IMG/VR virus record: IMGVR_UViG_3300028607_003725
Location: 12,011-76,010 of that record
Source: a virus
Reading direction: 5' to 3' (one strand)
DNA: 64,000 nucleotides
This document shows positions 23,901-64,000 of this stretch, piece by piece (the stretch's first letter is position 1; each line of letters starts with the position of its first letter). Under the pieces are notes generated by a model. The model was not told the DNA's origin and made no database searches. It saw only the letters and a program-made list of their open reading frames with translations. Position numbers and translations under genes: made by a program.

Positions 23901-26900
23901 TTAATACGTAGGCAAGATTTCAGAGAACTGATAGATCAACAGGCGGAGGCATTTGGATTTTCATCTACTAATAAACCAGATTTAGCAGCATTGTATGCAG
24001 AGTTAAATAGATCTATTGCTCCAAATTATCCGGATCTAAATTTACCAGATATATATCTTACGTCAACCGGCACACAGTTAATGTCACCAACGTTTTGTTT
24101 TGTTGATATTGATCCAGATCTTGAAATAGTTGAAATGGAAAAATCACTTGTAATGCTAAGAACAGTATTCTCAACTCAAATTGCTGCTTTATGGGGAGTT
24201 ATTAATAAAAGAGCATACGATGACATACAAGCTTATATGGTTACTAATAATGGACAGAATACTCCTATGTTTGATACAGCGTTAAATACTATGAGTGCTC
24301 TTGAGATTGCGTTAGCAGGGAAGGGGGAAAGAAAACGAGGATTAGTAATTCCGGCTTGGTTATTAGATCAGACTGACCCCCTTGCTCCTAGAAAAGATAA
24401 GTTAGACATAAAGAACTTAAAAGCTGCCAATATTTTTAAGATAATGGGTGATCTTGTTAAAAAAATAGAACTTGAACAGACACAAAATAATGAGAATCCC
24501 GATCCATTGGCAAGAACACCATTAACAGTTCCATTGACAGAGGGGTATCAGGGTTTAGCTAAATCGGATCTTATGAAGATAATGAGTCTTACAGCATTAG
24601 TGGATTATGTTATTACTCTAATGGCAGTGGCTCCTTATGTAACTGATCAGGTAGAGGCGACTAAATGGCTAGGAGCCACTGATGGTCTTAATTTTGTAGA
24701 AGCATCAAAAGCATTATCAAAACATGTTGCAGGATTTCTAGAGGAGGACAAACCAAATGTCGAAAAGTTAGCAAGTATTTTTAAAAACACAGTACTTCTG
24801 ACAGGAATAGAGGACCTAAAGATAGACTCAGAAATTAGAATAAAACGAACTATAGATTTAATTCTTAAAAAGAAAAATAAAGCTTCATCTATGCTGACCA
24901 TAGCATCTACCGGAGATTGGAGTGCTTTTAATTCATTTATGGGTATTGGAAACGTAGATGGTGATTTTAAGAGAACTGAATTACTAACAAAATTTAATGA
25001 GTATATGCAGACAAAAAGAAAAGGTACAATGGATAGAGTGTATCCTGCTTTTAAGCTGTTTATCTTAGAGGAAGATTCCCCTGTATGGCATTCTTTTGAT
25101 GACTTCTATACATATGATGCTGCTAGTGAAATTTCAATCATAGAGAGTAAACATGCTGCTAGTAAAACTGCATTGTTAAAACTATCTAATGTTACTGGAA
25201 AATTAACTGGTAAAAAATATAATGATCTTATTAATGAAGGGTACATTCCTTTACCGGGCGCTAATGTAAATTTAAAAGTAGGCGCAGAAATAATGATATT
25301 ATTAGGATATGGTGCAGACTATCGACAGCTTAGAATGAAGTTTAAAGGGGCAATCACAGAAATTAATCCAGGTGCTATACTAGAACTAACGGCACAATCG
25401 TGGGGAGCAGGTTTACTTAATCAAGTTGGTTCTCTTGGTGGAATTGAGCATACAACACTAAATGGAGCTTCTACACTAGGTGGAGTTCTGTTGGATATAC
25501 TAACTCAAACACCTGGGTTAGGGAAACTAGGAAGATGGGGTCTCAGGGACTGGGATAAAAATGATCCCAAACATTTTACTTATACATCTTTAAAGAGAAT
25601 ATATTATGCCAGAGCAATGAATTCTGCTTTGGGTTGGATTCCTAGTAAGGATTTTGCAGTTGTTAGTAATATATCTGATATACTGGGGGGCTTTTTGGAA
25701 GATAGATCTGAGGGTTTACCTTTTACTGGAAAAGGGGTTCTAGAAAAATATAGACAAAATGATGTAATTGTCCGCTCTGTTGGTAATGCTATTTTTGATA
25801 ATATTATAATTAATAATAATAAATTAGACGGGTATGGTCTTTTTCAGTGGGTGTCCAGGGTTACAAAGATATCCAGTTGGGGATTCTCTTGGCATATTTA
25901 TGCTCAATCAGCATGGGATGCTTTACATGAAGTTACATTGTTTTTAGGCGATTATATAGTGACGACTCTACCATTCGATGAGGGAAATGATGTATTCAGT
26001 AATCCTCCGCGTGAAACTTTATATGTAGGCCCTAGAGAACATTTATATAATGCATCTTCTTTTAAACCAACATTTAATATCAGAGATATAATGGCTGAAA
26101 TAATTAAGGACTATAACAATAGTTCAACTATTGTTGCTAATGCTACTGAGCTGGCTAAAGACTTTTCAACGAATTTAGATAATGCGTTGGCTAAACTTAA
26201 GGAATTAGAGGATGGAGCAGAGTTTCCCGTTGGAGAGCCTCAAGTTGCCAATGTACCAATGTATTGTACAGAATGGTATGACGGGCATGAAGAAGATCCA
26301 GCAACTTCTCCAGGAGATGAATATACCGTACTTTATACTATTCCGACTCCTTATGATGTAGGCGCTTCTGGGGCAACTTTTACATTTTTTGTACCCGAAA
26401 AAGATAGTTTAGACAAGGATCAAGCCTCAAATCTAATAAATCCTGGATCCCCTTATCCGGCTGTGCACGTTCTTGGTGATTTTGTAAAAGATCATGGAAT
26501 TCCTGGTTGGGGAGGAATGATAGAAGTAACTCGAGTTAAAGCTACAGATAGAGTTACCGGTCAGCAGTTTAATGCGGAAGTAGAATATACTAATGTAGGA
26601 GATGGATCTACAGCAGGATGGTGGGTTACTGTCAAAGATTTACCTGAAGTAGGAGCTACCTTTAGTCAAACGGTTTCTGAGGAATATTCTGACATTGAAA
26701 TATTTGGAGCGTCAGGAAACTATTATGAATGGAATGCAGCTCCATTTTCTTCTGCCGGATCAACAGGTTCTAATGGGTTTAACCCAGAGCACTACATAGG
26801 AAGAGGCAAAGTTCTCTTATCAACTCCAGGAAATAAGCCAATACAAGATGGAAGTTTAGACGTATTTTTAATAACGTGTAATAGTGGGGGCCCTGAGTGT

Positions 26901-33419: not shown

Positions 33420-33442
33420 ACAGAAGGTGACATATCTATAAC

Positions 33443-34216: not shown

Positions 34217-34247
34217 GATAAACAATTTAGCTGGGGGAAAAGAAGAG

Positions 34248-34400
34248 ATGAAATTTACAAAAGAATGGTTATCTTCATTATTAGAAGAGAATATGACTAA
34301 TTTAAAAACAGGAAAAAAAAGCGTAACGATAAATTATAAAAAACTTGAAGAAGAAATTGAGAAGTGGAGAAAGAAAACTAAACGTACTGAAGAAAGTTAA
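34248..34400 (+). CDS. Small charged hypothetical protein (50 aa)
   Basis: ATG at 34248 after GGGGG/AGAAGAG gives MKFTKEWLSSLLEE..; preferred over the 34188 start, which overlaps the upstream gene. Confidence 0.6.
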   Translation: MKFTKEWLSSLLEENMTNLKTGKKSVTINYKKLEEEIEKWRKKTKRTEES

Positions 34401-49321: not shown

Positions 49322-52279
49322 ATGTATAGCTCTAGACAACTACAGATTATTGAAAATTTAACTAGAGAGTTCCTGTCAGACAAAGGCAGATTACCCACTA
49401 AACAAGAATTAGAAAAACATCTTAATAGAACTAAAGAGTATGCTCCTTTTGTTTCTCCAAAAGTACCTTTGAAGAATGCCCTTAGTAATGCTTCATATAT
49501 AACGAAAACTTTAAGAGACCTTTTGCTAGATAGTAATTCAATACAAGAATTAATCAAAAAATTAATAGGTAAAATTGAAAGAATATTAACAACTAGTAAA
49601 GCTGAATTAGAATCTATACAGAAAAGAGCAGCTAGATTACTAGAATTATATGAAAGTACTGATTTTAAAACTTCTATATATAATGATTTTCCGGGGGTAC
49701 CCGATGAAGAATCTTATAATGTTCATTATGATGCGTCCGGTATAAAAATATTACCATCTACTAGCGAAGAATTAACTTATACTCATGGTATAAATAGCTA
49801 TAGTGCTGATGGAACTAATGTAACTTTACAAATAATAAGTACTTCAAATCCATTAGCTGTTTTAGCAAATGGTGTATCTGAAGGGGCAAAAGGTATATCT
49901 ATTGCTGTTTCTCTTAGTAATGCTCCAGTATATGTATCATCCATTTATATACAATGTGCTCCTATTACTATAGAAATATTAGTAAATAATATTTCTATAG
50001 TTACAAAAGATGTTATTGGAAGTGAAACGTTTATAATAGGAGATGAAGTAACTTCTTTAGAAATTCGAGCATATGATACAACCCCACAAGTAATGGTAAC
50101 AATAGATACTTTTCAAATATTTAAATCTGTTTATGGAACAGACGAGGGTTTTGATACTGGAGTTTATATTTCTCCAAAACTAGATTTGGGAAAAGAGAAT
50201 GGAAGAACTATTTTTTCTCCAAGTGTTTATATACCAGCAAATGCAGGTATAGTGTGGTATTATTCAACAGATTATGGGGTTTCTGGACCAAGTGCAGATT
50301 GGACTATTGTTGAAAAAGATGAAAATGAAGTAATGCATTTGTGGTGGAATTCTTTGGGACAAACAGGATCAATAATTAACACTACAAGTACCTCAGGTAA
50401 TCTAGCAAATATAGCAAGCTTAGCTCAGTTAGCTTCGCCTGGAGCAAGTGGAGCAAGTGGAGCAAGTGGAGCAAGTGGAGCAAGTGTACCTTTTTCTATT
50501 TTAGAATATCAGGACTTAAAAGTACAAGCAGGACTTGGTAATATTATTTTTATAGCTGATGTGGATCTTAAATTGTATAGGTTTACTACACATATGGAGA
50601 TAGACGAGGCAGGGTATCTATTTGAATTTACTAACCCAACTACAGATGAAGGAAAACTTATTACAAATGTAAGTATAGTGTCTTCAACATTTACACATAA
50701 CGAAATAACAGGAAGTACTGATGTAGTATCAATTGAAGTTCCAGCAGGCAAACATAAGGTTAATATAGAACTACTTGAAGATGATAGATTTCTAGAAATG
50801 GTGAATAATGATGGTAATTTAGATTTTTCAAATATAGTAGATAAAATATCAAATAAATTTGGAGTTGAATTTAATCCTAGAAATATATTTAACAAAGATT
50901 ATTTAGGAAGAACTCCTACTGTAAGTATACAGCCTAATACATTAACCGACGTGGATTATACAACTATTCACTACATGAGACCTCTGGATAGATTTAATTC
51001 AATGTGTATTTTACCTTCTACAATAGTGCAGGTAGAAAATTGGTCAAGTTCCCCCGAATTATATTCTATTGTTCCCATTTCTGATGTATATACAAAGAAT
51101 GCCGAATATAGTGCCATAAAAGAAACTCACACATATGGAGGATCAGGCGGTAATTGGTATTATCTAAACGAGTTATACCATAGTCCAACCGGAGCTACAG
51201 GTATTGACGTCACTACATATGTTGGTTCTACTGGAGGTATTTGTTATGGATATGATAGTAATCCTATTCTTGATCCTACTACAGATCTATGTGCTAGTCA
51301 TGATTACGATTTTCTAATAGTGCCAGATACTACTGCCTCCCGTCAAGATGAATTCTATTACAGAGGACTAGACCCAGTAGCTGTATTTGAATTAGAATGG
51401 TCTGCTAAACCTGGAGCTACTGCTAGTATTGCAGCGTCTAGTTATAATACAACAGACTATTGGACCTGTAATTCATGTGTAACAGGAGCTACGTTTTTAC
51501 TAAGTAGAGAGCCTGATGAGGCTCCTACAGCAATAGAATCAGCTGGAATTACTTATGGAGTCACATATTCTGGTCCGACCGGACCTGGGGAAAATGGTGG
51601 AACAATACATTTAGCAGAAGCCCCTCTTTCTTCATCGATGACCTTTATCGTAGACTATGATGCTACTGCAAGTATTAGAGACCATGTTGCAGGTACGTCT
51701 CTTGTTATGGTACAAAATTTACCAGCATTTCCTGATGGAGCTACTGCCGTAGAGGGTCTAGAGTTAGGTATAAGTTTAACTGAATTTAGTGGAACTGAGG
51801 CTGCACCAGAAGATTTTACATTACATCATGATGTTTTTTCCGTTATATCTTTAGAATATTTGAGTGGGGAAGGGGTTACAGCTACTCTAACTGGCTGGAC
51901 TAGTGGAGCAGAAGGAGCCATAGGTGGAGCTTTATTGGCTATAAATGGTCAGACTATAACAGTTAATACTCAAAATTTAACACTAGATCAAACTCTATTC
52001 ATAACCTATGATACTATGGACTTATCACAAGGCTATCCTTTTGGTTTAAGTTACAATTATTTTAATCCAGTGTCTTATCATTTTTCGTATGATTACGTTG
52101 AAAAAGAGTATCTAACTGCTACTGAAATTTATGGTAGTACTGGAATGTTAGCGCATTTTTATGACATATCTTATTATATACCGGAAACGGATGATGATGG
52201 GATTTATTTAAAAGCAGTTATGCAGGGCACTGACTCAGAAACCCCTATAATAAGAAGGATTAGATTTAATAATGAATAG
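49322..52279 (+). CDS. Putative virion structural protein (985 aa)
   Basis: Coiled-coil N-terminus, beta-rich body, (GAS)5 tract, C-terminal ETPIIRRIRF similar to the ends of 47804..49321 and 52550..53674. Confidence 0.45.
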   Translation: MYSSRQLQIIENLTREFLSDKGRLPTKQELEKHLNRTKEYAPFVSPKVPLKNALSNASYITKTLRDLLLDSNSIQELIKKLIGKIERILTTSKAELESIQKRAARLLELYESTDFKTSIYNDFPGVPDEESYNVHYDASGIKILPSTSEELTYTHGINSYSADGTNVTLQIISTSNPLAVLANGVSEGAKGISIAVSLSNAPVYVSSIYIQCAPITIEILVNNISIVTKDVIGSETFIIGDEVTSLEIRAYDTTPQVMVTIDTFQIFKSVYGTDEGFDTGVYISPKLDLGKENGRTIFSPSVYIPANAGIVWYYSTDYGVSGPSADWTIVEKDENEVMHLWWNSLGQTGSIINTTSTSGNLANIASLAQLASPGASGASGASGASGASVPFSILEYQDLKVQAGLGNIIFIADVDLKLYRFTTHMEIDEAGYLFEFTNPTTDEGKLITNVSIVSSTFTHNEITGSTDVVSIEVPAGKHKVNIELLEDDRFLEMVNNDGNLDFSNIVDKISNKFGVEFNPRNIFNKDYLGRTPTVSIQPNTLTDVDYTTIHYMRPLDRFNSMCILPSTIVQVENWSSSPELYSIVPISDVYTKNAEYSAIKETHTYGGSGGNWYYLNELYHSPTGATGIDVTTYVGSTGGICYGYDSNPILDPTTDLCASHDYDFLIVPDTTASRQDEFYYRGLDPVAVFELEWSAKPGATASIAASSYNTTDYWTCNSCVTGATFLLSREPDEAPTAIESAGITYGVTYSGPTGPGENGGTIHLAEAPLSSSMTFIVDYDATASIRDHVAGTSLVMVQNLPAFPDGATAVEGLELGISLTEFSGTEAAPEDFTLHHDVFSVISLEYLSGEGVTATLTGWTSGAEGAIGGALLAINGQTITVNTQNLTLDQTLFITYDTMDLSQGYPFGLSYNYFNPVSYHFSYDYVEKEYLTATEIYGSTGMLAHFYDISYYIPETDDDGIYLKAVMQGTDSETPIIRRIRFNNE
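50441..50485 (+). repeat. Perfect 9-bp tandem repeat (GGAGCAAGT)x5 encoding (Gly-Ala-Ser)5
   Basis: Five identical in-frame units read directly from the sequence. Confidence 0.97.
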
Positions 52280-52550
52280 TAATAAGACAAGTAAAACTAC
52301 AATAAGAAGTGGGTATCCTCTTGAGAGCGATAAGATGAATCAGACTATAGAACATTTTCTTTATGATATAGCAGTTATCTTATCAACCCCGATGCCTGGA
52401 CTAATTAATAACGAGAGTATGGATTTGTATTTTGGTGCAACAGGTTATGTAAATGAATACGTAGAAAACCTAAATCAAAGTCAACTGGGTATCCAAAAGA
52501 TAGGAGACCTCATAGAAAAAGACCATACATCTAATTGGAGACAAGTCTAA
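52272..52550 (+). CDS. Small putative structural protein (92 aa)
   Basis: Coupled to both neighbours. N-terminus IRSGYPLESDKMNQTIEHF resembles that of the next gene. Confidence 0.55.
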   Translation: MNSNKTSKTTIRSGYPLESDKMNQTIEHFLYDIAVILSTPMPGLINNESMDLYFGATGYVNEYVENLNQSQLGIQKIGDLIEKDHTSNWRQV

Positions 52551-53674
52551 TGAGTTATGATCCATTTGACTATGGCGATCAACTAAACCCTGAAAAGCTA
52601 AATAATAAATTAGAGCAAATAAATAAATTATTGTCTCGTGCCTATGTACACAATAATGAACTACGTAAACGAGTTGAAACTTTAAATATAGCTTTTTCTT
52701 TAGCCAATGAGGATTTAGCAGGGGCTACTATAGGAACCTCTACAGGTTATACTGAAGCTTCAGTAGGAGCGAGTGGTCATGAGGTAATTATAGGAGGCAA
52801 GCATTTTTCTGCTGATTATACCAGTACTAGTGTCACTGTTATAGACACCAACAACACACAAGACGATAACTATAGTCTTATTCTTTCTAATACCGATACT
52901 GTAAGTAGAATACCACTTACTCTTAATTTATTCAATGAGTTAGAGCCAAGCTTAGGAACTATATTAACGTCTTCTTTAGATGATTTTGATCAAACTAAAC
53001 TCTGGACAATGTTAAGCCCATCTGCTGTTTGGGCAGATACTAGTGCTTCTGCAACGGGTACTATTTATATTGAAGTACCTGCTACTTTAACACCTTTACT
53101 AAATAGAATCACTATTAAACCTATCACAGGTACAGGATATAAACTACAGTATGAAGATTTTGGAGGAGTTTATCATTTTGTTGACCCAACCATGAGTAAT
53201 GGCTATCATACTGGAATGAATACTTATCATATAGATGGAAGTAAATTTTCCGGTGTACTAGAGGTTATATTAAATGGTACTAATATATCTTCGTCTTACC
53301 ATTATGGTCTCTCTACTATTAACATGGACTATAGAAAGTATGTAAGCACAGGGGATGCAACCATTGATCTTGCTCTAACTTCTAGTGTTGCTAAAAATTT
53401 AACATATGTAAATGCAAATTTTGAAGATAGTAATGATGTAGCTGCAGAGAATGCAATTATACGGATATCAGCAGGAGCAACGGGTGTAGCGTTTGACGAT
53501 AATATTATATATGACTCTACTTATCATCAATATCCATTACTAACATCATCGTATCCTCTAGAGGATCATTCAAATACTATAGTAAATACAGTTTATATAA
53601 AAGTTACGTTAAAGCAGAAGACAGAGAATACGCCTGCACTTAAAGATTTAACTATAAGATATGAGGAGGTATAA
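52550..53674 (+). CDS. Putative virion structural protein (374 aa)
   Basis: ATG at 52550 overlaps the previous stop (TAATG), preferred over TTG at 52535. Helical N-terminus, beta-rich body, ends ENTPALKDLTIRY. Confidence 0.5.
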   Translation: MSYDPFDYGDQLNPEKLNNKLEQINKLLSRAYVHNNELRKRVETLNIAFSLANEDLAGATIGTSTGYTEASVGASGHEVIIGGKHFSADYTSTSVTVIDTNNTQDDNYSLILSNTDTVSRIPLTLNLFNELEPSLGTILTSSLDDFDQTKLWTMLSPSAVWADTSASATGTIYIEVPATLTPLLNRITIKPITGTGYKLQYEDFGGVYHFVDPTMSNGYHTGMNTYHIDGSKFSGVLEVILNGTNISSSYHYGLSTINMDYRKYVSTGDATIDLALTSSVAKNLTYVNANFEDSNDVAAENAIIRISAGATGVAFDDNIIYDSTYHQYPLLTSSYPLEDHSNTIVNTVYIKVTLKQKTENTPALKDLTIRYEEV

Positions 53675-53678
53675 ATAA

Positions 53679-54086: not shown

Positions 54087-54093
54087 AATAATC

Positions 54094-57000
54094 ATGCAGG
54101 TTACGCTGAGAGGACATCATCGGGATACTTTCAAGCTTGCTCCCATAAATACACTAGAGGATGCTAGTACATTTATATACGGGGCAGTGGACGAAGATGG
54201 AACCCTTACACTAGAGCTAGAACTTATTGCTTGGAAGGTATGGATACGTCCAAGATTAAGTACTGTATTCAAGTTAGCCAGCGTAGATGTACCAGAAGTT
54301 CTTTACTATATACGAACTGCAAATCCCTTTATAGACTCACAAGGTGTAATTGACCTTGTACCTACAGCAGACCAAACTCTAATATCTATATTAGTGACAG
54401 ATGCGTTCAATACTTTTCCTCATGTTCGTTTATATGATACCCTAAGAATAACTTTAATTCAAGATAACTTATATTTTGGAGGCCCTTCAGGGCCAAGTGG
54501 GCCCCCTGATCTTAGTGTTTTTACGTTTGATGGAACTGAAACCTCTATACCTATTATACACAGTGGTTCGACTCAAGACTTTAATTATACCATTGATTTA
54601 TCAGGGCAATCATTTGAGTCTAATGGTACGTATGAATCTACTGAACTGTTAGATTATTATATAAGTTTAAGTCAAGTATCTGACAATCTGTTAGTTTTTC
54701 CGTCTGACCCCTTTACTATTGATAGCACAGATCCTACTATTACTCCAGGAAGTATTGCATTAACCAGTTCCTTTAGTACGGTTGCAACTAGCACTTCTAC
54801 TCCTAGTGTACTTTTAATCACTGCTGGTGGTGCCATGGCAGATACACTTTCCGGAATGGCAAAAGTAAAAGCACAACCTTTTATAGGAGGTAGTGCTAAT
54901 TATCAAGGAGCTTCTGCTGCGAACGTAGGATATGATCAATTACAAATATCATCACTTTCTTCTTGGGACGGACAGGCTTTATCTGAGTTAGAGGGATTTT
55001 CTGTTGTTGTTCATTCTTCTTTTTATAATACTACAGGTACCTGTACAATATCAACATCCCCTACCCCTATTGTAGTTGATGGAAATCTTGATATTACATG
55101 TGATGAAGCAGATATTTTAGGGACAGGTGTTACATTTAGTAACCATACTGTAGATTTTTATTTACTTCCACACGGTACCGTTGACGAACAAATAGATTAT
55201 TGGGAGTATGATTTACAGTATGGAACAGGTCAATCCTATAATATACAACTTGATCTAGGAGTTCCATCTTATTGGATGACTATATATGGCGCTAAATATG
55301 GAGTTGCTATAGCTGCACAAGATAAAGCTGGTAATTATTCAAATGGAGCAGATGTTGACTTCTATCCCTCCTTAACCTTTGATCCTTATGGTCTTTTTCC
55401 TCCAGGCTTGGCTTGGAATTTTTTAGATGGGCAGACTGGGTCTAATGTTTATCCTAATGAAAATGGATGGTTTACTAGTAATCAACTGTGGATAGATATA
55501 TTTCTTGTAGAGGTAATAGACAATGCCCCTGCAGCATGGATAGAGATTAATGAAGGGGACCCTACTGATGATGATGACTGGAATGTTGCAAATGTAGCTC
55601 CTGGACAGGGTGCAAAATATCAGTTTCAAACACAAGGTACCTACTCTTTTTATGTAAGATCTGTGAACACAGAAGGATTAGCAACAACGCCTTATAAAAT
55701 TGAATATCAGTGGGATAGTATTAAACCTACTATAACAGGTGTTGCTTGTGTTAGTTCTGAATATGTAGATTGCGTTCCTCCAGGTAGTAATGCTCCTATA
55801 TCTGGTTTTAATAGGATATATTTCACGTGGAGTAATAGTGGCCTAAGTTTAAATGATGGGGACCCTGCTTTACAAGGGTACACAGGCTCATCTTCGGGAA
55901 TTGAATCATTTATAATACATAAAAGTTCTAGTTTACCAGTGGTTGATTCTAATTCTAATCCTGTTAAGAGTTTCCCTGCTGAGTCCAGTACAATTTTAGA
56001 AGATGGAAACTTGGTACTAATAGACGCGGGTGTGCCTTATGCTTTATGGAATTTCGGTCTAGAATATCAGTGGTATCTTGGATGGGAGAATGATTTCCTT
56101 ACTGGACCTACTTTTCTGACAGAAACTGAGAGTATGACCCAGATAGATTTATCAATATATCCGGGGCACCCTAAACCAGATGGTACTTACTATGTATATG
56201 GTACTTGGGTTAACCTAGAACCTGATGATATTACTGAAATTGCAACTGTTCCTACGACTTCTGAGGAATATACTGATACAAGTTTTTCTTTAACGGGTAC
56301 CAATACAACTGATTACTATTATTGGCTTTCTGTTAAAGACAGAGCAGGCCATATAAGTGCTGGTACATCTTTAAAACCTCTTCCATTTTTATTAGTCAAT
56401 AGTGAGGCTTTACATACGGTTCCTCTGGTACCGGCAGACGTAGATGGACAGTTACAATTAGTAAAAACGATCCTACAAAAGGATACAATTGGTGCGCATG
56501 GATGGGAAACCTATGCTGCAACATCCCTTTATGGGGTTAGTGTGCCCATTGGAGCTGTTTCAGTAATAACAGATCTAATTTATAACAGAGTAAGTCTTTA
56601 TCATTCCAAAGTAACAGCTATCACAGCTATTGAATATTATAATCCAAATACAAGTGGGTGGGCTTCAGTTTCTTCACCAACAATAAATGGAAATGATGTA
56701 TCACTAGGGTATGCTGTTAATGGTGCCGGCGTTAACAGCAACAGTATCACAGTAGATTTACAGGTCAGTAGCTTAGCTCAAATAGATTTTGGAGGAGGGT
56801 GGGCCCCGGAAAACTATAACTTTACAACAGGGCAAACAGTTATAGAATATGGAATGACTGGAGACGGAGTATGTACGCCAGTAGGAGCAGCTTCCTTATC
56901 AGGTTGTACAGGAGATTGGACTTTAAATAAGCATTTTCATGATACCTTTATAATTAGTGTAGATAATAATAATCCTACTATAACATTTGATCCACCTTTA

Positions 57001-60000
57001 CCTACTTTTAATACATCCGTATTTGTACTTAATAGAATTGGAACTTTACTACCTAGTCATAAAACAACAACGGTATCCTTTACACCAGTTGACGAAATGT
57101 ATTCATGGAGATTTATTGTAGCCGGTAATCCTGCAGCCGATTGTAGTGGAGGTACATTTACAGATGAATTTGGTTGTACCAGTGATGGTGAAACTTGGCT
57201 TAATAAAGAATTTGAAACAAGTGATTTTAACTTTGATTCTTTTCTAGCTGCTGATTTAATAGTAGGAGGTACCCTAAGGTTAGAAACAGGATTAAGTATC
57301 TGGAGTGGTGGATATACAGGAGGACAACCTCAAGGATCTGGTATAATTTTAGATCAACTAGGAATGCAGATGTTTGACTCTTCTGGGAATTTAGTTGTTA
57401 GGTTGGATGCTGGTGCTGAAGTAGGGACAGGAGGTTCTTTTAAATTTGGTAGTCAGCATTCTAATTTATCTTTTGATACCACTTCAGGTAATTTACTATT
57501 AGTAGGAACCCTTACCCAAATAATGCCAGACCCGGATATACCTTTTCCTATGGTACAACGCGGTATATGGGTCTATGATTATAATACACCAGATGGATAT
57601 TCCCCTGGTTCAATAGTATTATGGAATGGAGGATGTCAGAATTCTGACCAAACAGACGAAGCAGGATGTACGGTGGCTGGAGGGAATTGGCTAGGAGAAG
57701 GAGATGGTAATTATTATATAAACTCCGTAGGCGGAGGACAAACTGCAAATAACTCATTATATCCACCTAATGCTCCATGGGACTTATTTGCAGTAAATGC
57801 ACCACAATCAGCAAAAGTAATATCTATTCATGCATCTTCTCAAGTATTTGTAGTTCCAAGTGGTGTGACTACTTGGGCCTTACCTCTTTATTCACAGATA
57901 GATGTGGACAGTCAAGGTATATTTCCCGAGAGTGGTGATTGGGAAATAGAAGCCATAGGTTATATTGGGTCAACCCCTTACTCTATACCTTTATTTGCTG
58001 GAACCATAGGTCCTAATTTCTCTTGTAATGGTGCTACCTGTAGTATGACAGATGGGCTCCAATATACTAATGGAACGACTGCTAGATTATGGTCCGCTGC
58101 ATTAGTTAGAGGTATTAGTATAGATCAAGCAGGTCAATATATTGATCATTCCCCAGAGAGATTTGACTATGCAGAATGTTCTATTACAGTTGTTAACACA
58201 GTTGATGGTGCAACTTATGATGACACAGTAACAGTCATACTAGCAGACGATGGTAGTGATTCATTCAACGTAATTCTCTCCAACGAAAGCCACTTAGTTC
58301 AAACATTTTCAGATGGATACTCATATGGAGATTGGACTAATAGTTTTACGGTTGTTACTTTATTACAAGGTACTCAAGTACAACAAGAGACATGGGTAGC
58401 TGTTGTAGATTATGGACCAACTTTTGATGTAAACAGTATGGACTATATTGAGGTGGGCTCTAGCAAAGAAATAGAAATATCGTATAATGGTTCTGCAACA
58501 CCTACTGTTTCTGTAGATTTAACAGGGCCAAATTTTGCTAGTACACAATCCATTTATGTGGATATAGGAGTTTGGCAAACGGAAGATGATTTTACTGCTG
58601 ATCCAAATAATCCTCCAGTAACTAAAACATTTAATATATCTAAAGCAATACAAGGGCAAACAGGAAGTGGAGCACAATCACTTAGCTTAGCAGCCTCTTC
58701 TCAATTCTTTTTATTTGATGGTTCATTTGGTGTACCTCAAAACGGCGCAGCTATAATAGATTTCACAGCAGGGTATTTAAATATAGATCAACATACCACA
58801 GGCTGGCGAGTAAAGGTACTAGACAATGCAACAGGTGGTTATATTTATCTCCCATACAATGATGCCGTGTGGGGAGGTAATAATCCACAGTCAACATCTG
58901 CCTCTATCAGTGTTACTGATTTTGTAACAGAAATAGAAGGTCCCTATACAGTAAGTGAGGCAACGATACAAGTATGGGATACGGGACCAACTAGCTTTAG
59001 CTATGATACTGCCTTGTACAAAGACGAACTAACAATTCATCAACTTTTCTCTGGAGCAGATTCTTATAATATTATATTATCTAATGAGACTTACATAGAG
59101 AGCTCGGGGTCGGTTATTACTGATATTACAACAGATATAGAAGTGAATACCTATCATGGTACCAGTTTAATAAATTCAGAGGCTATAATAAGTTTCAGTG
59201 GAGGACCGGGGGTAACTGCTTTAGGAACAACTGGATCTAGCTATATACCTTTACCAGGAAATATAGCTCCAACTGGTACATTTGAATTTAGAGTTACCTT
59301 AAATGTAGAGGTTAACAATAGCTATGCTGAGTTTGCAGTAGAGCATAATGGACAGGCAATAACAACTAAACAATTTAATATTACAAGAGTAATAGATGGA
59401 GAAGTAGCACATGTATTTTTCCTTAATCCAGAAAGTCAGGTAATTGTTTTTGATGAAACAGGAACTGCTATCACTCCATTTGTAAATATAGATGCTCAAA
59501 CTTCTTTAGTAACTGATTCAAATGATGATATTGATTGGTTTATTCTAGATGCAGCAGGTGCTACAATAGATTCTGCTACAGGAGGCTCTTCTGGATCCTA
59601 TATAGAATTTGTACAACCAGATATAATATCAGTTAATGCAAGCGGAATCTTTCAAGATAATTTTGGAATTTTCAGTGATAAGAAATTTAAAGTGTTTGCA
59701 GAACATCAAGGAGTAACTGGATTTTCCGGTTCTTCCTCTTCAGATACAACTACATTACATTTAGTACAAGAACCTGCATCTGTTCAATCTTTTGAATTAA
59801 CGCAGACCTCTGAATCATTCTTATATGGTCAAGACGTTAGTGAAGACGGCCCAACTGCCATTATAGCAACGGTTGTAAAAACATCAAATCTTCCAGGGTT
59901 ATCAAATTTTACTTGCAGCCTTCCTTTATGTAGGGAAAACCCGGGAGGTAGTCTAATAGGAGGAGGTGGAACTGCAGGTACAGCATTAGCTTCAGTAAAA

Positions 60001-63000
60001 GTTCTTCAGTCAGAGTTTACAGCTTCAGGTGCCCAGACTATGTCTATAACAGCTACTTATCCAGGGGCAACATTTGCCGATGAGAGATCTGATACAATAA
60101 CTATACATAAATTACAATCGGGTTCAGATGTTTTAACTGTATATGGTACTCAACAAGATGCCACTATAACCATGGGACCTGAAGGATTTCCTAATTCTGC
60201 AGAGCTAGTTCCCACTCGTTCTTTCATAAAAGTTTTTAGAGGATCAGAGGAAATGCCTTATCAATGGAATGGGCCTAGTGGTGGAAATCTGGGCTGTAAT
60301 CAACCAGGAAGTTGGGAAGCTATAAACACTTACTGTATTTGGGCAGGGCCATCTGGTGACTGGTCTGGTCCAGGAGGAGCAGGATCTACAGGATCTGCTT
60401 TTAGTATAGGAGCTACAGGATTAGTAGAAAATTTGTTATCAGATGAGTATCCTTCTAGCATGCTGCAGGCCAATGACATTGAAGCTGATCAATTATCCTA
60501 TTATCTATGGATAAGATATACAGATAATAATAGTAGTCAAGTTGATGTTCCAATACAACATACTGTAAGTATAGTTAGAGCTGGTCAAGATGGTTCTCAT
60601 GCAAAATCAATTAATGTTTATACAGATTCTGACTTCTTTACACAATCGGCAAGTGGAACCGTTTCTCCAGAGTATATTATTGTTAGAGCTGGACTACAGA
60701 ATATTACTAACGATGGAGTCTGGAATATATCTGCAGGATCATCGTCAGCTAGCTGTCCAGAGATTTCATGTGCTACAGGAGGAATTACAGCACCATATAT
60801 AGCTATAGGAGCTTCTGGAGATTTTTCTGACGGCATGACGGTATCTTACCAAAGTGAGGGTGTAGTAGATATAGTAACCTTGCACAAACTTATAGACGGA
60901 GCTAATAGTGTATCAGGCTTCTTAACTAATGAAGCATACACTGCTCCAGCGGACTCAGATGGAGGAAATACAGATCTCTCTGGGGCAATAGGACAATTTA
61001 AAGTATATGATGGTATTATAGAAAAAACACAATCTATGTCTGTAAATTATAACTACACCGGTAGTGTAGATGGAATATTTTTTACAAGTGGAGTAAGTGT
61101 ACTTTATGGAAATGCGGAATGTGACATAGGATCTACTGGTTTATACACTTGTATTGCTACTGTTTCTGGTGCAACGTTTGAGGATTCTGGAATAGAATTT
61201 TTAGCACAATATAATAATGTAAATTTAAGAAAAACTTTTAATATAAATAAGAGTTCAGCAGGTCAATCAGCTTTTACGATCTTTCTAACTAATGAAAATC
61301 ATACTTACTCTGGATTATCGGGGGTTCCTCTGACATCTCAACAGATGTTGGCTGGTACTTTTAATGTTAATGTTAAACTAGGAACAACTGCCTATACATA
61401 TTCTGAATCGTCAGGTACTCCTGGTACTTATACTATTGATAATTTAGGAGTTACAGGGGATGCTGGAGCAACAAGTATAGCTGGAGTAACGGGTCTTACA
61501 GACGACGGTAATGATAATTTTCTATTTAAGCCTACACCTGCTGCCGGATCAATTTCCAGTGAAGATGCTATTAAAAATGCAAAGGTTACTTTTAGAATAA
61601 GAGACGGGCATAACACGGCTTTACAATGGAATATGACAGTTTCTTATTCTAAAACTTTAGATGGTATAGATGGAGGGATAGGTCCATCTGGACCTACTGG
61701 ATATACATCACCGACTGTAGCTGCTGTTACACCTGTAACTGATATTATATTATACGATTATGTTGCTCCGGGTACTGGATTAATCCATGGATATGTTGAT
61801 AATACTTATCAAAAATTTAAAATAAGTGATGCATCTTTTAGACCAAGTAATGTCTATATCCCTGGTATATCTAGAGACTGGGAGATTGTATCTATTCCCG
61901 GACATACCCCTGCTCCTAGCGGATCATGGTTGTGTAATGATTCGGACCCCACTAATATTAATACAGTGTGTTGTGGAGGAACAGCTCTTGGTTATAGTTG
62001 TGTAGATGATTTAGAAGATATATGGCTATATCCACAATCATTTATTGTGGATTCATTTCCTATAGGTTTTGGAATTAAATTAACAACAGACGATAGCTCT
62101 ATTAATAGTCCTGCCACTGTTACTACAGAAATACAAGGAATATTAGGACCTGCTGGAGGAGTCACAGATGCTATTATTAATGTAGTAGGTTCAGCAAACA
62201 CATTAGTGTTTGATGAAAGTGGACCTACGTTTTCTGTGACCTTAACAGATGCATCATTTTATTCAGAAGGAGCTACTGCATTTAGATATTGGGAAATTCC
62301 TGATGCATTTACTGGAGCTTCCTTTGGATTTTCTGGAACGTCAGGTACTACTGCTGATGGGGCCGGCTCTGCATCTATTGAGCTGTGGCCAACAGATACT
62401 TCTTCTGTGGGTACCCATGAATTTTCACTGACAGCTAGAAATTGGTCAGGATTTACAGGAGAAGGTACTGATACCTGGAATGTACAAATTATAGATGTAA
62501 CTGCTATAATAGGGCCTACTGGAATTCCTCCTTATGAAGACTATGCTTATACTATTGCATCAGTAGGAGCAACTCCTGCAGGACCTACAGGTTATATTTA
62601 TATAAGTGGGGCTACTCCTGCAGGCTTTACAGCAGATGCAATATGGTCAGCAGAACCCCTAAGTGTGCCTTACCCTGCTCTTCAAAACGAAGCACTTTGG
62701 ATATCTCAAATTACTATTTCAGGAGATACAGGTTATCCTATTACTGGATGGACTGAAGCAATAATAATAGGATATGGAGGTATTGATGGAGTTGATGTAA
62801 GACTTCCCCAGCTTACTTCAAGTGGAAATACATTTCAAACCACAGGAATTAATACAGTTACAGTTACTACTGGATCTAGTCCAGGTAGTTGGAAAATAAA
62901 CTATGATAATTATGATAAGAATAAATCCTTAAGTAGTACATGGAGATGGGGACATGGTCATTTCTTTGCCGCAGGAGGAACTACTGACGGAGCTACACCG

Positions 63001-64000
63001 GGAGCCGGAAATGGTACTAATTTGGCAGTCTTAGGACCGTTTAACTCCAGTTCATTTGGTGCAAGTGGTGACGGAGGAGTTATAAGTAAATTTTATCTAC
63101 CAGGACATAAAAAAATAAGAGTTCATGCAAAATTAAAATTACTAAATGCTTATTGGGATGAAAGCTTCTATGACCTACGTAGTAATTTAAAACTAAAGGT
63201 ATGGAATGCTGAACCAACAGATACTAATGATATAGGACTCTGGGAGTATAATTTAAACCAAGGAGGAACTGCACTTAATTATTGTAAGAATAGTTCCAAT
63301 GAAGAGTTTGGAAAAGGAGGATACTCACACTATCTACGTGCAGGTGGTCCTTTTGAAGAAGCATGGTTCTATTGGTTCGTAGATGGAGATGGAGCAATAG
63401 GACAACCTGGATGGCAAGTTGGTCCTATAGATGGTCCTATAGCAACACGGGACTGGTTTACTATAAACTACAAAAAGGAACATGATCCTACTCCAAACGC
63501 TTCAAATAGTGGAGATGAATATCCATCTGTATGTGATATTGAGATTTCCACAGGATGGTTAGATGGAACAGACTGGGAGTGGTCTCCAACAGGAACTGAT
63601 GAGTCCATTGCTTATTATGTAGCTATAGAGCAAACTGGACCTACTGCTGCATGGTCTAGTAATAGCTATAGTAATGCAGGAGCTTGTTGGGTAATCAGTG
63701 AATTAACTGTTGATTTTATAGATATATTACCAGAATATATCGATATTACTGCCCAGCTATATATCGGAGGAGATCCTTACAATATATATAATATAGTATG
63801 GGATGGCTGGGGAGCTACTTCAACCTACGCTGCCACAGCAACGGCTAGGGTTTTTCATTCAGATATATATTTAGATCAAGAAATATCTGCAGAATTTAAC
63901 GATGCTCCAACAGGAGGAGCATTCTATGAACCTAGTTTAGAGTTAATAGATTTATCAGATACTACTCCTAGTATGGGAGTTGTTACATCTATAAATTATG
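54094..64000 (+). CDS. Giant tail-fibre / host-specificity-like protein, 3'-truncated by window end (>3300 aa); absent from the ORF track
   Basis: ATG at 54094; frame read to the window end with no stop. Fn3/Ig-like motifs (AAQDKAGNYS, YSFYVRSVNTEG, YYYWLSVKDRAGHIS), J-like FLAADLIVGGTL..GMQMFDSSGNLVVRL, CBM5/12-like segment and tandem L[ST]NE / SSQ domains. Confidence 0.85.
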   Translation, partial: MQVTLRGHHRDTFKLAPINTLEDASTFIYGAVDEDGTLTLELELIAWKVWIRPRLSTVFKLASVDVPEVLYYIRTANPFIDSQGVIDLVPTADQTLISILVTDAFNTFPHVRLYDTLRITLIQDNLYFGGPSGPSGPPDLSVFTFDGTETSIPIIHSGSTQDFNYTIDLSGQSFESNGTYESTELLDYYISLSQVSDNLLVFPSDPFTIDSTDPTITPGSIALTSSFSTVATSTSTPSVLLITAGGAMADTLSGMAKVKAQPFIGGSANYQGASAANVGYDQLQISSLSSWDGQALSELEGFSVVVHSSFYNTTGTCTISTSPTPIVVDGNLDITCDEADILGTGVTFSNHTVDFYLLPHGTVDEQIDYWEYDLQYGTGQSYNIQLDLGVPSYWMTIYGAKYGVAIAAQDKAGNYSNGADVDFYPSLTFDPYGLFPPGLAWNFLDGQTGSNVYPNENGWFTSNQLWIDIFLVEVIDNAPAAWIEINEGDPTDDDDWNVANVAPGQGAKYQFQTQGTYSFYVRSVNTEGLATTPYKIEYQWDSIKPTITGVACVSSEYVDCVPPGSNAPISGFNRIYFTWSNSGLSLNDGDPALQGYTGSSSGIESFIIHKSSSLPVVDSNSNPVKSFPAESSTILEDGNLVLIDAGVPYALWNFGLEYQWYLGWENDFLTGPTFLTETESMTQIDLSIYPGHPKPDGTYYVYGTWVNLEPDDITEIATVPTTSEEYTDTSFSLTGTNTTDYYYWLSVKDRAGHISAGTSLKPLPFLLVNSEALHTVPLVPADVDGQLQLVKTILQKDTIGAHGWETYAATSLYGVSVPIGAVSVITDLIYNRVSLYHSKVTAITAIEYYNPNTSGWASVSSPTINGNDVSLGYAVNGAGVNSNSITVDLQVSSLAQIDFGGGWAPENYNFTTGQTVIEYGMTGDGVCTPVGAASLSGCTGDWTLNKHFHDTFIISVDNNNPTITFDPPLPTFNTSVFVLNRIGTLLPSHKTTTVSFTPVDEMYSWRFIVAGNPAADCSGGTFTDEFGCTSDGETWLNKEFETSDFNFDSFLAADLIVGGTLRLETGLSIWSGGYTGGQPQGSGIILDQLGMQMFDSSGNLVVRLDAGAEVGTGGSFKFGSQHSNLSFDTTSGNLLLVGTLTQIMPDPDIPFPMVQRGIWVYDYNTPDGYSPGSIVLWNGGCQNSDQTDEAGCTVAGGNWLGEGDGNYYINSVGGGQTANNSLYPPNAPWDLFAVNAPQSAKVISIHASSQVFVVPSGVTTWALPLYSQIDVDSQGIFPESGDWEIEAIGYIGSTPYSIPLFAGTIGPNFSCNGATCSMTDGLQYTNGTTARLWSAALVRGISIDQAGQYIDHSPERFDYAECSITVVNTVDGATYDDTVTVILADDGSDSFNVILSNESHLVQTFSDGYSYGDWTNSFTVVTLLQGTQVQQETWVAVVDYGPTFDVNSMDYIEVGSSKEIEISYNGSATPTVSVDLTGPNFASTQSIYVDIGVWQTEDDFTADPNNPPVTKTFNISKAIQGQTGSGAQSLSLAASSQFFLFDGSFGVPQNGAAIIDFTAGYLNIDQHTTGWRVKVLDNATGGYIYLPYNDAVWGGNNPQSTSASISVTDFVTEIEGPYTVSEATIQVWDTGPTSFSYDTALYKDELTIHQLFSGADSYNIILSNETYIESSGSVITDITTDIEVNTYHGTSLINSEAIISFSGGPGVTALGTTGSSYIPLPGNIAPTGTFEFRVTLNVEVNNSYAEFAVEHNGQAITTKQFNITRVIDGEVAHVFFLNPESQVIVFDETGTAITPFVNIDAQTSLVTDSNDDIDWFILDAAGATIDSATGGSSGSYIEFVQPDIISVNASGIFQDNFGIFSDKKFKVFAEHQGVTGFSGSSSSDTTTLHLVQEPASVQSFELTQTSESFLYGQDVSEDGPTAIIATVVKTSNLPGLSNFTCSLPLCRENPGGSLIGGGGTAGTALASVKVLQSEFTASGAQTMSITATYPGATFADERSDTITIHKLQSGSDVLTVYGTQQDATITMGPEGFPNSAELVPTRSFIKVFRGSEEMPYQWNGPSGGNLGCNQPGSWEAINTYCIWAGPSGDWSGPGGAGSTGSAFSIGATGLVENLLSDEYPSSMLQANDIEADQLSYYLWIRYTDNNSSQVDVPIQHTVSIVRAGQDGSHAKSINVYTDSDFFTQSASGTVSPEYIIVRAGLQNITNDGVWNISAGSSSASCPEISCATGGITAPYIAIGASGDFSDGMTVSYQSEGVVDIVTLHKLIDGANSVSGFLTNEAYTAPADSDGGNTDLSGAIGQFKVYDGIIEKTQSMSVNYNYTGSVDGIFFTSGVSVLYGNAECDIGSTGLYTCIATVSGATFEDSGIEFLAQYNNVNLRKTFNINKSSAGQSAFTIFLTNENHTYSGLSGVPLTSQQMLAGTFNVNVKLGTTAYTYSESSGTPGTYTIDNLGVTGDAGATSIAGVTGLTDDGNDNFLFKPTPAAGSISSEDAIKNAKVTFRIRDGHNTALQWNMTVSYSKTLDGIDGGIGPSGPTGYTSPTVAAVTPVTDIILYDYVAPGTGLIHGYVDNTYQKFKISDASFRPSNVYIPGISRDWEIVSIPGHTPAPSGSWLCNDSDPTNINTVCCGGTALGYSCVDDLEDIWLYPQSFIVDSFPIGFGIKLTTDDSSINSPATVTTEIQGILGPAGGVTDAIINVVGSANTLVFDESGPTFSVTLTDASFYSEGATAFRYWEIPDAFTGASFGFSGTSGTTADGAGSASIELWPTDTSSVGTHEFSLTARNWSGFTGEGTDTWNVQIIDVTAIIGPTGIPPYEDYAYTIASVGATPAGPTGYIYISGATPAGFTADAIWSAEPLSVPYPALQNEALWISQITISGDTGYPITGWTEAIIIGYGGIDGVDVRLPQLTSSGNTFQTTGINTVTVTTGSSPGSWKINYDNYDKNKSLSSTWRWGHGHFFAAGGTTDGATPGAGNGTNLAVLGPFNSSSFGASGDGGVISKFYLPGHKKIRVHAKLKLLNAYWDESFYDLRSNLKLKVWNAEPTDTNDIGLWEYNLNQGGTALNYCKNSSNEEFGKGGYSHYLRAGGPFEEAWFYWFVDGDGAIGQPGWQVGPIDGPIATRDWFTINYKKEHDPTPNASNSGDEYPSVCDIEISTGWLDGTDWEWSPTGTDESIAYYVAIEQTGPTAAWSSNSYSNAGACWVISELTVDFIDILPEYIDITAQLYIGGDPYNIYNIVWDGWGATSTYAATATARVFHSDIYLDQEISAEFNDAPTGGAFYEPSLELIDLSDTTPSMGVVTSINY

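What the first reader, a model, noticed from the sequence alone, without database searches (positions are those of the whole stretch)
26365..64000. Gly-Ala-Thr (and G-x-T/S-G) strongly enriched only in predicted outward-facing virion proteins
Seen, by-eye counts: about 43 GAT tripeptides from the hub insert onward (about 9 in the insert, 10 in the 1561-aa protein, 12 in the fibre) versus about 3 in the preceding ~8300 aa. GST, GPT, GVT and GAS are also common. Codons vary, so the signal is at protein level, and onset coincides with the hub insertion. Established: Thr in GPT repeats of Bacillus BclA is O-glycosylated, and some actinobacteriophage virions are glycosylated. Inference: a dispersed O-glycosylation or other modification sequon coating the tail, for shielding or host mimicry.
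Basis: partly seen in the sequence, partly recalled or inferred. Interest (0 to 1): 0.72.

Follow-up and report, generated by a model that had tools for sequence, protein, structure and literature searches.

The report
Gly-Ala-Thr tag on phage tail proteins
The outer tail proteins of this uncultured marine phage and its closest relatives carry the ordered tripeptide Gly-Ala-Thr about seven times more often than chance, at positions that shift between relatives. This looks like a selected short tag, possibly a site where a sugar or other group is attached to threonine, but no enzyme and no chemistry support that yet.

Summary
Downstream of nt 26365 there are 42 GAT tripeptides in 12,132 aa, against 6.0 expected from composition (P about 1e-21). 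GAT is the top of all 8,000 tripeptides, and the next best has P about 1e-4. The 8,683 aa upstream hold 3, against 2.6 expected.

The signal is at protein level. It is not due to repeats or a shared domain, and it survives shuffles within 10-aa blocks. It belongs to a wider motif, [S/T/A]-G-[A>G,P,V,S]-T-[G/A/F/Y]: G-x-T-[GAFY] occurs 97 times against 21.5.

The enrichment recurs in three to four relatives at about 40-50% identity, but mostly at different positions. It is absent from a syntenic sister clade, from this phage's head and internal proteins, and from T4 fibres. The sites lie near indels and in loops or turns.

My best reading, at about 0.4, is an acceptor motif on Thr for a protein modification, with O-glycosylation the leading guess. 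A structural turn or strand-start motif is the main rival, at about 0.33.

No glycosyltransferase was found, but only about 41% of the genome is available. This scan has earlier noted similar lineage-specific motif excesses (DGY, LS[AGS], S/T-G-S) on the tails of other phages.

The parts
26214..30995 (+). Lineage-specific insertion of about 1,594 aa (aa 2743-4336) in the 5143-aa hub-like protein. It holds 9 GAT (aa 2795-4087).
   Evidence: BLASTP against the relative's hub aligns aa 1064-2742 and 4337-5140 and skips this block. There are 9 GAT against 0.98 expected inside it, and 1 against 1.05 in the other 3,549 aa.
36996..41681 (+). 1561-aa protein directly after baseplate J. It holds 10 GAT, all beyond aa 507.
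   Evidence: 10 against 0.68 expected. The orthologue P0002 (38% identity) has 7 against 0.44, with none at an aligned position.
41684..44122 (+). 812-aa distal baseplate or fibre protein with 4 GAT.
   Evidence: 4 against 0.37 expected. The orthologue has 2, at other positions.
44122..45720 (+). 532-aa protein with one GAT (aa 454). This is one of only two sites in the set that are conserved in position.
   Evidence: NEKGATAY is identical in the 51%-identical orthologue.
49322..52279 (+). 985-aa protein with 4 GAT at aa 624-806. The N-terminal half is a long helix followed by two jelly-roll (carbohydrate-binding-module-like) sandwiches.
   Evidence: 4 against 0.47 expected. Relatives: P0003 has 5 against 0.28, P0004 has 3 against 0.17, P0015 has 5 against 0.21, and the L008 orthologue has 7 against 0.37.
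52535..53674 (+). 379-aa protein with 2 GAT.
   Evidence: 2 against 0.17 expected.
54094..64000 (+). Giant fibre protein of at least 3,857 aa that runs off the contig. It holds 12 GAT in the window, all beyond aa 1313, and a 13th just outside.
   Evidence: 12 against 2.43 expected. The reading frame is still open at the contig end. The first 1,788 aa of the relative's fibre have 10 against 1.29. The homologous fibre of the far relative L005 has 3 against 1.9.
1082..26213 (+). Negative control: two internal giant proteins and the hub core. They show no GAT excess and a mild deficit of G-x-T-[GAFY].
   Evidence: GAT 3 against 2.7. G.T[GAFY] 3 against 8.6, P = 0.018 (these counts also include the hub C-terminal core, aa 4337-5143, nt 30996-33419).
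35811..36995 (+). Baseplate J, the only recognisable family in the module. It anchors the reading of the genes downstream as distal baseplate and fibres. It has no GAT.
   Evidence: PF04865 at 4e-19 and phrog_6 at 4e-32.
45786..49321 (+). 672-aa and 505-aa proteins with no GAT and no G-x-T-[GAFY] in this phage, and no GAT in the L001 relative. They are probably buried wedge parts.

Best explanation
Shown: the ordered motif [S/T/A]-G-A-T-[G/A/F/Y] (core G-x-T-[G/A/F/Y], with x mostly Ala) is a short linear motif acting at protein level. It stands free of any shared domain. It sits at 5- to 10-fold excess in the distal tail proteins, in a lineage-specific hub insertion and in the middle of the sheath. 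This holds for one clade of marine contractile-tailed phages.

Inferred: the density is maintained by selection while single sites come and go. The sites lie in surface loops and turns. The most likely reason is that the Thr is the acceptor for a modifying enzyme that works on tail proteins in the cytoplasm during assembly. O-glycosylation is the leading guess, by analogy with G-x-Thr acceptor triplets. The enzyme would be encoded in the unsequenced ~59% of the genome or by the host. The result would be a coat on the outer tail.

The purpose of such a coat (protection, solubility or adhesion) is not addressed by any data here.
For: 1. Strength and order-specificity. GAT occurs 42 times against 6.0 expected (P about 1e-21), the other orderings 6-14 times. 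G.T[GAFY] occurs 97 times against 21.5, z = 17.
2. Protein level. The signal is frame-specific, with ordinary and mixed codons.
3. No shared context. There are no internal repeats, and GAT-flanking windows are no more alike than random windows.
4. Independent replication with turnover. The L001/L008 relative has 17 against 1.6, again the top tripeptide, and its fibre has 10 against 1.3. P0003, P0004 and P0015 together have 13 against 0.66. Only 2 positions are shared among the 36 aligned GAT sites, and flank identity equals background.
5. Clade-specific. The GAT-rich proteins form a 100/100 clade. It is sister to seven GAT-poor homologues. The syntenic far relative L005 has 5 against 3.0, with no outlier tripeptide.
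6. The newly acquired hub insertion is enriched as well, 9 against 0.98.
7. Location. 47% of sites lie within 4 columns of an indel, against 26% background, P = 0.005. In the AF2 model, two motif sites fall in two of the three short low-pLDDT loops of the confident part, and a third sits at a hairpin turn.
8. Thr exceeds Ser about 2:1. Position +1 avoids charged and aliphatic residues but favours G, A, F and Y.
9. Precedent. The soluble GT-A/TPR enzyme SgtA puts O-GlcNAc on Thr (Ser is also accepted) in peptides from the Gly-Pro-Thr collagen-like region of C. difficile BclA3 (PMC7157674). Mycobacteriophage virions are glycosylated (Freeman 2023, as cited in PMC12619734). A host enzyme methylates a phage tail protein (PMC13445384).
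Against: - No glycosyltransferase or other transferase was found. PF00535, PF00534 and PF13844 give no six-frame match in the 77.7-kb record. Pfam finds none in any ORF of the ~88-kb terminase-to-fibre block, nor in the gene tables of relatives.
- No gene of the tail block is unique to the GAT-rich clade.
- Capsid and head-decoration proteins carry no motif. This is unlike the mycobacteriophage case, where the capsid and tail tube are the targets.
- Single sites are not more conserved than their surroundings.
- Gly in a turn followed by Thr at a strand start is also what a purely structural motif would look like.
- Most sites lie in regions that cannot be aligned with the GAT-poor clade: 7 of 42 lie in alignable parts. 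A different fold content in those regions is therefore not excluded.
- There is no chemical evidence of any kind.
Confidence: 0.4

Rival explanations
1. Structural motif. G-A-T is the preferred way, in the fast-evolving beta-rich distal domains of this clade, to close a tight turn (Gly), place a small residue (Ala) and open the next strand with a beta-branched exposed Thr. Nothing is attached to it.
For: - In alignments the motif often precedes an alternating strand pattern (GATFTLARV, GATYTVYYN), and the middle residue swaps among A, V, I, M, G and T.
- AF2 puts G722 in coil with ATFL as a strand. It puts DGYTI at a hairpin turn followed by a strand.
- Gly at i and i+3 is 1.5-fold enriched, with short G-X-Y runs.
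- T4 fibres show that a structural tripeptide can top such a list: HSH, part of the known HxH boxes, 4 against 0.06.
- An earlier scan note found a tail-fibre Asp-Ser excess to be structural (e1-5375366).
Against: - Structural turn motifs are normally conserved in position. Here only 2 positions are shared among the 36 aligned sites, and conservation equals background.
- Homologous, syntenic proteins of the sister clade have the same G/A/T content but no excess.
- T4 fibres have none.
- There is no common fold context.
- Position +1 favours G, A, F and Y but not V, I or L, which a plain strand start would accept.
Confidence: 0.33
2. Historical by-product. The distal domains of this clade are drawn from a shared, exchangeable pool, or grow by short slippage-born G/A/T/S-rich loop insertions. 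The word GAT happens to be common there and is not itself selected.
For: - Sites cluster in the variable, indel-rich parts.
- A GAS x5 run and a duplicated GATPAG segment show that slippage occurs.
- Fibres end the contigs in two assemblies, which suggests high variability.
Against: - The 9-mers are as heterogeneous as independent codon choice predicts, so there is no DNA copying.
- Flanks are unrelated.
- The same excess is kept in lineages only 40-50% identical, and in an independently acquired hub insertion.
- Local-composition shuffles do not reproduce it.
Confidence: 0.12
3. Recognition motif for something other than a modifying enzyme. Examples are an assembly chaperone, many weak contacts with a host or particle surface glycan, or a tail-decoration protein.
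For: The motif shows the same selected, exposed, clade-specific pattern as above. The N-terminal half of the 985-aa family looks like tandem carbohydrate-binding jelly rolls (weak TM-scores).
Against: A tripeptide gives little binding energy. About 100 dispersed copies in seven different proteins is unlike known chaperone or decoration sites. No candidate partner gene is specific to the clade.
Confidence: 0.1

Closest known systems
Gly-X-Thr acceptor triplets of collagen-like spore glycoproteins (C. difficile BclA3 with SgtA, PMC7157674; B. anthracis BclA, from my own knowledge)
   Same: A Gly-x-Thr unit has Thr as the O-glycan acceptor, and Ser is tolerated. The enzyme is a soluble glycosyltransferase, active in vitro on peptide substrates (PMC7157674). 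The product is an exposed fibrous surface structure.
   Different: In those proteins the triplets form long uninterrupted G-X-Y collagen helices, with Pro in the middle. Here the motif is isolated (the longest G-X-Y run is 5 triplets), the middle residue is Ala, and the next residue matters. No adjacent glycosyltransferase was found.
Virion glycosylation of mycobacteriophages (Freeman et al. 2023, as described in PMC12619734)
   Same: Phage structural proteins are modified before release, giving a coat on the outside of the particle.
   Different: There the glycans sit at the C-termini of capsid and tail-tube subunits and the phage encodes glycosyltransferases. Here the capsid has no motif, the sites are dispersed in distal tail proteins, and no enzyme is known.
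HxH iron-binding boxes of the T4 gp37 fibre tip
   Same: A short word is strongly over-represented in a fibre protein. It was recovered here by the same statistic (HSH, 4 against 0.06).
   Different: The HxH boxes are regularly spaced in one repeating fold and are conserved in position. GAT has no periodicity, no shared fold and no positional conservation.
Shifting N-glycan sequons of enveloped-virus glycoproteins (the 'glycan shield'; from my own knowledge)
   Same: Motif density is maintained while individual positions move between lineages.
   Different: That is a eukaryotic secretory-pathway N-x-S/T sequon with proven chemistry. Here N-x-[ST] is exactly at chance and the modification is hypothetical.

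Membership tests
Phage virion glycosylation, mycobacteriophage type | Phage-encoded glycosyltransferase genes | tested here: inconclusive
   PF00535, PF00534 and PF13844 have no six-frame match in the 77.7-kb record. No Pfam glycosyltransferase appears in any tested ORF or in relatives' gene tables. However, CheckV estimates the record at 41% complete, and giant genes longer than the 10-kb flank blocked walking into the rest of the genome.
Phage virion glycosylation, mycobacteriophage type | Acceptor sites on capsid and tail-tube subunits | tested here: not met
   Head-module proteins have 0 GAT in 4,155 aa. Tube-region proteins have 1 against 0.4. The motif is on distal tail proteins instead.
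Phage virion glycosylation, mycobacteriophage type | Glycan demonstrated on virion proteins | not testable with these tools
   The phage is uncultured and no proteomic data exist.
Collagen-like G-X-Thr glycoproteins (BclA / BclA3 type) | Long uninterrupted Gly-X-Y repeat region | tested here: not met
   The longest period-3 Gly runs are 5 triplets, seen 3 times. Most motifs are isolated.
Collagen-like G-X-Thr glycoproteins (BclA / BclA3 type) | Thr in the third position of a Gly-x-Thr unit, with Ser tolerated | tested here: met
   G.T occurs 155 times against 87.7. GAT occurs 42 times and GAS 18 times, against about 6 each. G.TG occurs 45 times against 7.9.
Bacteroidetes general O-glycosylation sequon D-(S/T)-(A/I/L/V/M/T) | Excess of that sequon in the target proteins | tested here: not met
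   51 observed against 52.0 +/- 6.9 in shuffles.
Cytoplasmic N-glycosylation (HMW1C type), N-x-S/T | Excess of N-x-[ST] | tested here: not met
   112 observed against 112.0 +/- 9.6.
Repeat-domain signature (Ig-like, PKD, Big and similar) | Motif at a fixed place in a recurring homologous domain | tested here: not met
   There are no Pfam domains and no internal BLAST repeats. Flank similarity equals that of random windows, in register or not.
DNA-level motif (uptake, Chi-like, restriction or methylation site) | Excess independent of reading frame and strand, with fixed bases | tested here: not met
   Counts are 42, 1 and 0 by codon phase and 6 on the other strand. Third codon positions follow codon usage.

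The most novel reading that the evidence does not exclude
A previously undescribed protein-modification system of marine contractile-tailed phages. A dedicated enzyme, not yet seen, reads the pentapeptide-like sequon [S/T/A]-G-A-T-[G/A/F/Y] and decorates about a hundred threonines on the baseplate periphery, fibres, outer sheath domain and a hub insertion. The sequon was gained once on the stem of this clade and has since been kept at high density by selection while sites turn over. Together with the other lineage-specific motif excesses noted by this scan (DGY, LS[AGS], S/T-G-S), it would point to a general and so far overlooked habit of tailed phages: tagging their outer tails.
Probability: 0.3. 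Interest if true: 0.85.

Novelty: new variant of a known kind. Interest (0 to 1): 0.62.

Why it matters
If the Thr is modified, this would be the first dispersed sequon defined for a phage tail. It would extend virion modification from actinobacteriophage capsids to the host-recognition apparatus of abundant marine phages. That has consequences for adsorption, stability and decay of phages in seawater, and for the prediction of receptor-binding surfaces.

The purely computational result is useful in itself. An ordered tripeptide kept at 7-fold excess across lineages only 40-50% identical, with almost no positional conservation, is a clean signature of selection on motif density. It offers a simple statistic for finding such tags in other uncultured phages. 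The GAT-rich and GAT-poor sister clades give a ready-made contrast for finding the responsible gene once complete genomes are in hand.

Tried and rejected
- **Relatives in public collections.** tblastn against 50,697 phage records with baseplate J, the fibre end and the 985-aa protein gave only one weak Fusobacterium phage hit, for baseplate J. IMG/VR scans with the 1561-aa protein and with a baseplate-J alignment found nothing. JGI metagenome contigs and GTDB genome contigs also gave nothing. Two alignments were too diverged to scan with.
- **Homologue searches.** The search for homologous proteins found nothing for the fibre or the portal. I therefore could not anchor in the non-structural part of any related genome. 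Walking with the look-up of encoding contigs is blocked because the hub (10.6-15.4 kb) and the fibre (11.6-14.3 kb) are longer than the 10-kb flank.
- **Structure.** The first AF2 model, of the C-terminal 396 aa of the 985-aa protein with 8 sequences, failed (pLDDT 35). Solvent exposure of most sites therefore could not be read. The Atlas has no model and no look-alikes.
- **Explanations rejected.**
  - A DNA-level motif.
  - Recent repeats or a domain signature.
  - Local composition.
  - A general property of fibres (T4).
  - The known sequons D[ST][AILVMT] and N-x-[ST].
  - A gene unique to the GAT-rich clade within the tail block: the 532-aa protein turned out to have a homologue in L005.
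- **Expression.** No RNA holder is listed among the sequencing runs.
- **Literature.** Searches for a G-x-T bacterial or phage O-glycosylation motif, or for glycoproteomics of phage tails, found nothing beyond BclA3/SgtA and the mycobacteriophage work. The Freeman 2023 paper is not held.
Full report
**What the region is.** The window lies in a 77.7-kb IMG/VR virus record that CheckV estimates at 41% complete. The phage recurs in seawater and marine metagenomes; five studies hold at least half of the sampled words. The genes run in this order:
- terminase, a likely portal, capsid, sheath and tube;
- two internal giant proteins of 2622 and 2945 aa;
- a 5143-aa hub-like protein, small proteins and baseplate J (PF04865);
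- proteins of 1561, 812, 532, 672, 505, 985, 379 and 135 aa;
- a fibre of at least 3,857 aa that runs off the contig.

Apart from baseplate J, nothing downstream matches Pfam or PHROGs.

**Check of the observation.**
- There are 42 GAT downstream of nt 26365 in 12,132 aa, against 6.0 expected from per-protein composition. There are 3 against 2.6 in the 8,683 aa upstream.
- Among all 8,000 tripeptides GAT stands alone, with P about 1e-21. The next best is about 6e-5.
- The other five orderings of G, A and T occur 6-14 times.
- Shuffling within 10-aa blocks, which keeps local composition, gives 8.6 +/- 2.4 with a maximum of 14.
- The DNA pattern GGNGCNAC is found 42 times in codon phase 0, once in another phase and 6 times on the opposite strand. 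Codons inside GAT follow general usage. The 42 sites use 20 different 9-mers, as expected for independent codon draws (P = 0.17).

The signal is therefore in the protein, not the DNA.

**Not repeats and not a domain.**
- BLASTP of all these proteins against each other finds no internal or mutual repeats at E < 1e-3.
- With GAT masked, 83-aa windows centred on GAT are hardly more alike than random windows, aligned freely or in register.
- Only the neighbouring positions carry information.
  - Position -1 is enriched for S, T and A and is rarely hydrophobic.
  - Position +1 is G, A or F in 25 of 42 sites.
  - Charged, Asn and aliphatic residues are avoided.

**A wider motif.** Four-residue patterns show G-x-T-G (45 against 7.9), G-x-T-A (26 against 5.7) and G-x-T-F (19 against 3.7).
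- In G-x-T the middle residue is Ala at 7.5-fold. Gly, Pro and Val are at 2-3-fold, and Leu, Ile, Asn, Asp, Glu and Lys are depleted.
- G-x-T-[GAFY] occurs 97 times against 21.5 +/- 4.3, z = 17.
- Gly at i and i+3 is 1.5-fold enriched. There are a few short G-X-Y runs of up to 5 triplets, far too short for collagen.
- The known bacterial sequons D-[ST]-[AILVMT] and N-x-[ST] are exactly at chance.

**Where it is and is not.**
- Enriched:
  - a hub insertion (9 against 0.98);
  - the 1561-, 812-, 985- and 379-aa proteins;
  - the fibre beyond aa 1313;
  - more weakly, the middle of the sheath (3 against 0.7, at aa 307-397; the recognisable sheath core matches only at aa 768-881).
- Not enriched:
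  - head module (0 in 4,155 aa);
  - internal giants and hub core (3 against 2.7);
  - tube region;
  - baseplate J;
  - the 672- and 505-aa proteins.
- The wider motif is mildly depleted in the internal proteins (3 against 8.6, P = 0.018). Their probably helical nature could explain this.
- The hub insertion is real. The relative's hub aligns to aa 1064-2742 and 4337-5140 and lacks the 1,594 aa in between.

**Relatives.**
- The 1561-aa protein has a single detectable homologue (P0002, 38% identity). It lies on contigs of 100 and 116 kb with the same gene order (L001, L008).
- In that phage GAT is again the top tripeptide, at 17 against 1.6 (P = 1.6e-12). The first 1,788 aa of its fibre add 10 against 1.3.
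- Further relatives of the 985-aa protein are also enriched: P0003 (5 against 0.28), P0004 (3 against 0.17) and P0015 (5 against 0.21).
- In pairwise alignments only 2 positions are shared among the 36 aligned GAT sites. The partner has any G-x-T at about 28% of sites, which is what about 41% overall identity predicts. Flank identity equals background.
- In a five-sequence alignment single columns flip among GAT, GVT, GMT, GAI, GGT and GTT. This happens even between proteins that are 87% identical.

**The sister clade lacks it.**
- L005 is a syntenic contig with homologues of the proteins from the 812-aa protein through the fibre. It has the same G, A and T content. It has 5 GAT against 3.0 in 6,485 aa and no outlier tripeptide.
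- Seven further homologues of about 1,000-1,250 aa hold one GAT in total.
- A maximum-likelihood tree of the N-terminal domain puts the window, L008 and P0003 in a 100/100 clade. That clade is sister to these seven. The excess therefore maps to one branch and has persisted through divergence to 40-50% identity.
- One caveat applies. Only 7 of the 42 sites lie in parts alignable with L005, where L005 has 1. Most sites are in fast-evolving regions whose folds cannot be compared.
- T4 long fibres have 4 against 2.2. The same statistic picks out their known HxH box as HSH.

**Structural context.**
- GAT sites lie within 4 alignment columns of an indel in 47% of cases, against 26% background (P = 0.005).
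- The first AF2 model failed (pLDDT 35). Its only moderately confident stretch puts G722 in coil and ATFL in a strand.
- The second model covered aa 1-720 of the relative's 943-aa orthologue, with 24 sequences and a mean pLDDT of 69.
  - It is confident to about aa 555.
  - SGGTG (319-323) and KGATL (345-349) fall in two of its three short low-confidence loops.
  - DGYTI (404-408) is a hairpin turn leading into a strand.
- Foldseek gives only weak matches of that half to tandem carbohydrate-binding jelly rolls.
- In every readable case Gly is in a loop or turn, and Thr is in the loop or at the first strand position. Solvent exposure itself could not be measured.

**Search for an enzyme.**
- GT2, GT1 and OGT-type families have no six-frame match in the record.
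- No Pfam transferase appears in the ~88-kb terminase-to-fibre block or in the gene tables of three relatives.
- No tail-block gene is specific to the GAT-rich clade.
- About 59% of the genome is unseen, and it could not be reached.

**Interpretation.** The following are shown:
- an ordered, protein-level, context-free motif;
- restriction to distal tail parts;
- gain on one branch;
- maintenance at high density while sites turn over.

The cause is inferred. Maintained density without positional conservation is what is expected of a short motif read by another molecule. Examples are the shifting sequons of viral glycan shields and short linear motifs in general.
- A G-x-Thr acceptor has a direct precedent in BclA3/SgtA (PMC7157674).
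- Phage virion glycosylation exists (Freeman 2023, via PMC12619734).
- A host enzyme is known to modify a phage tail protein (PMC13445384).

I therefore rank a Thr modification sequon first (0.4), with O-glycosylation as the leading guess. The structural turn or strand-start reading (0.33) fits the local geometry. It does not easily explain the lack of positional conservation, the absence from the sister clade, or the +1 preference for G, A, F and Y over V, I and L. A neutral by-product (0.12) is hard to reconcile with the mixed codons, the unrelated flanks and the enrichment of an independently acquired insertion. Other recognition roles get 0.1.

**Relation to earlier notes of this scan.** Other agents reported lineage-specific excesses of different short motifs (DGY, LS[AGS], S/T-G-S, SG) on the outer tail proteins of unrelated phages. 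They judged one Asp-Ser case to be structural. I did not test those. They are not evidence here, but they suggest the phenomenon may be general.

**Verdict.** If it is a sequon, it is a new variant of phage virion modification.

Noticed in passing
window 26214-30995: The hub-like 5143-aa protein carries a clean 1,594-aa insertion relative to the 3543-aa hub of the L001 phage, where only about 7 aa stand in its place. The flanks align at 45% and 37% identity.
   Followed up: partly
window 28131-28160 and 41511-41540: Two different proteins share the nearly identical 10-mer GATFTEN-x-C: hub insertion aa 3382 and the 1561-aa protein aa 1506. This is the only GAT pair with clearly similar flanks and may be a small shared module.
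   Followed up: no
window 50441-50485 (985-aa protein, aa 374-388): A perfect (Gly-Ala-Ser)x5 run. It looks like a slippage-born linker between the two jelly-roll-like domains and the distal part.
   Followed up: no
window 54094-64000 and L003: The fibre gene is still open at the contig end (at least 3,857 aa). Orthologues are called at 3,930 and 4,773 aa. Both this contig and the 100-kb relative contig end inside the fibre gene, suggesting assembly breaks caused by strain variation there.
   Followed up: partly
L008:11464-13623 (orthologue of window 49322-51520): AF2 (pLDDT 69) models the N-terminal half of the 985-aa family as a roughly 55-residue helix followed by two beta-sandwiches. Their best, weak PDB matches are tandem carbohydrate-binding modules (CBM51, CBM22, CBM32), which hints at a glycan-binding baseplate protein.
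   Followed up: partly
L006:1-1710: The terminase large subunit of this phage carries an intein (Hint / Intein_splicing hits in the gene table). This is a second intein besides the one already noted in the 2622-aa protein.
   Followed up: no
genome 5924-8587 (L002), sheath aa 307-397: The three GAT of the 887-aa sheath all lie in its middle third, outside the recognisable sheath core (PHROG match at aa 768-881). This fits an exposed insertion domain, but the count is small (3 against 0.7).
   Followed up: partly
L004 (T4 genes 34-37): The tripeptide-excess statistic recovers the known His-box of the T4 fibre (HSH, 4 against 0.06, P = 4e-7). This serves as a positive control for the method.
   Followed up: yes
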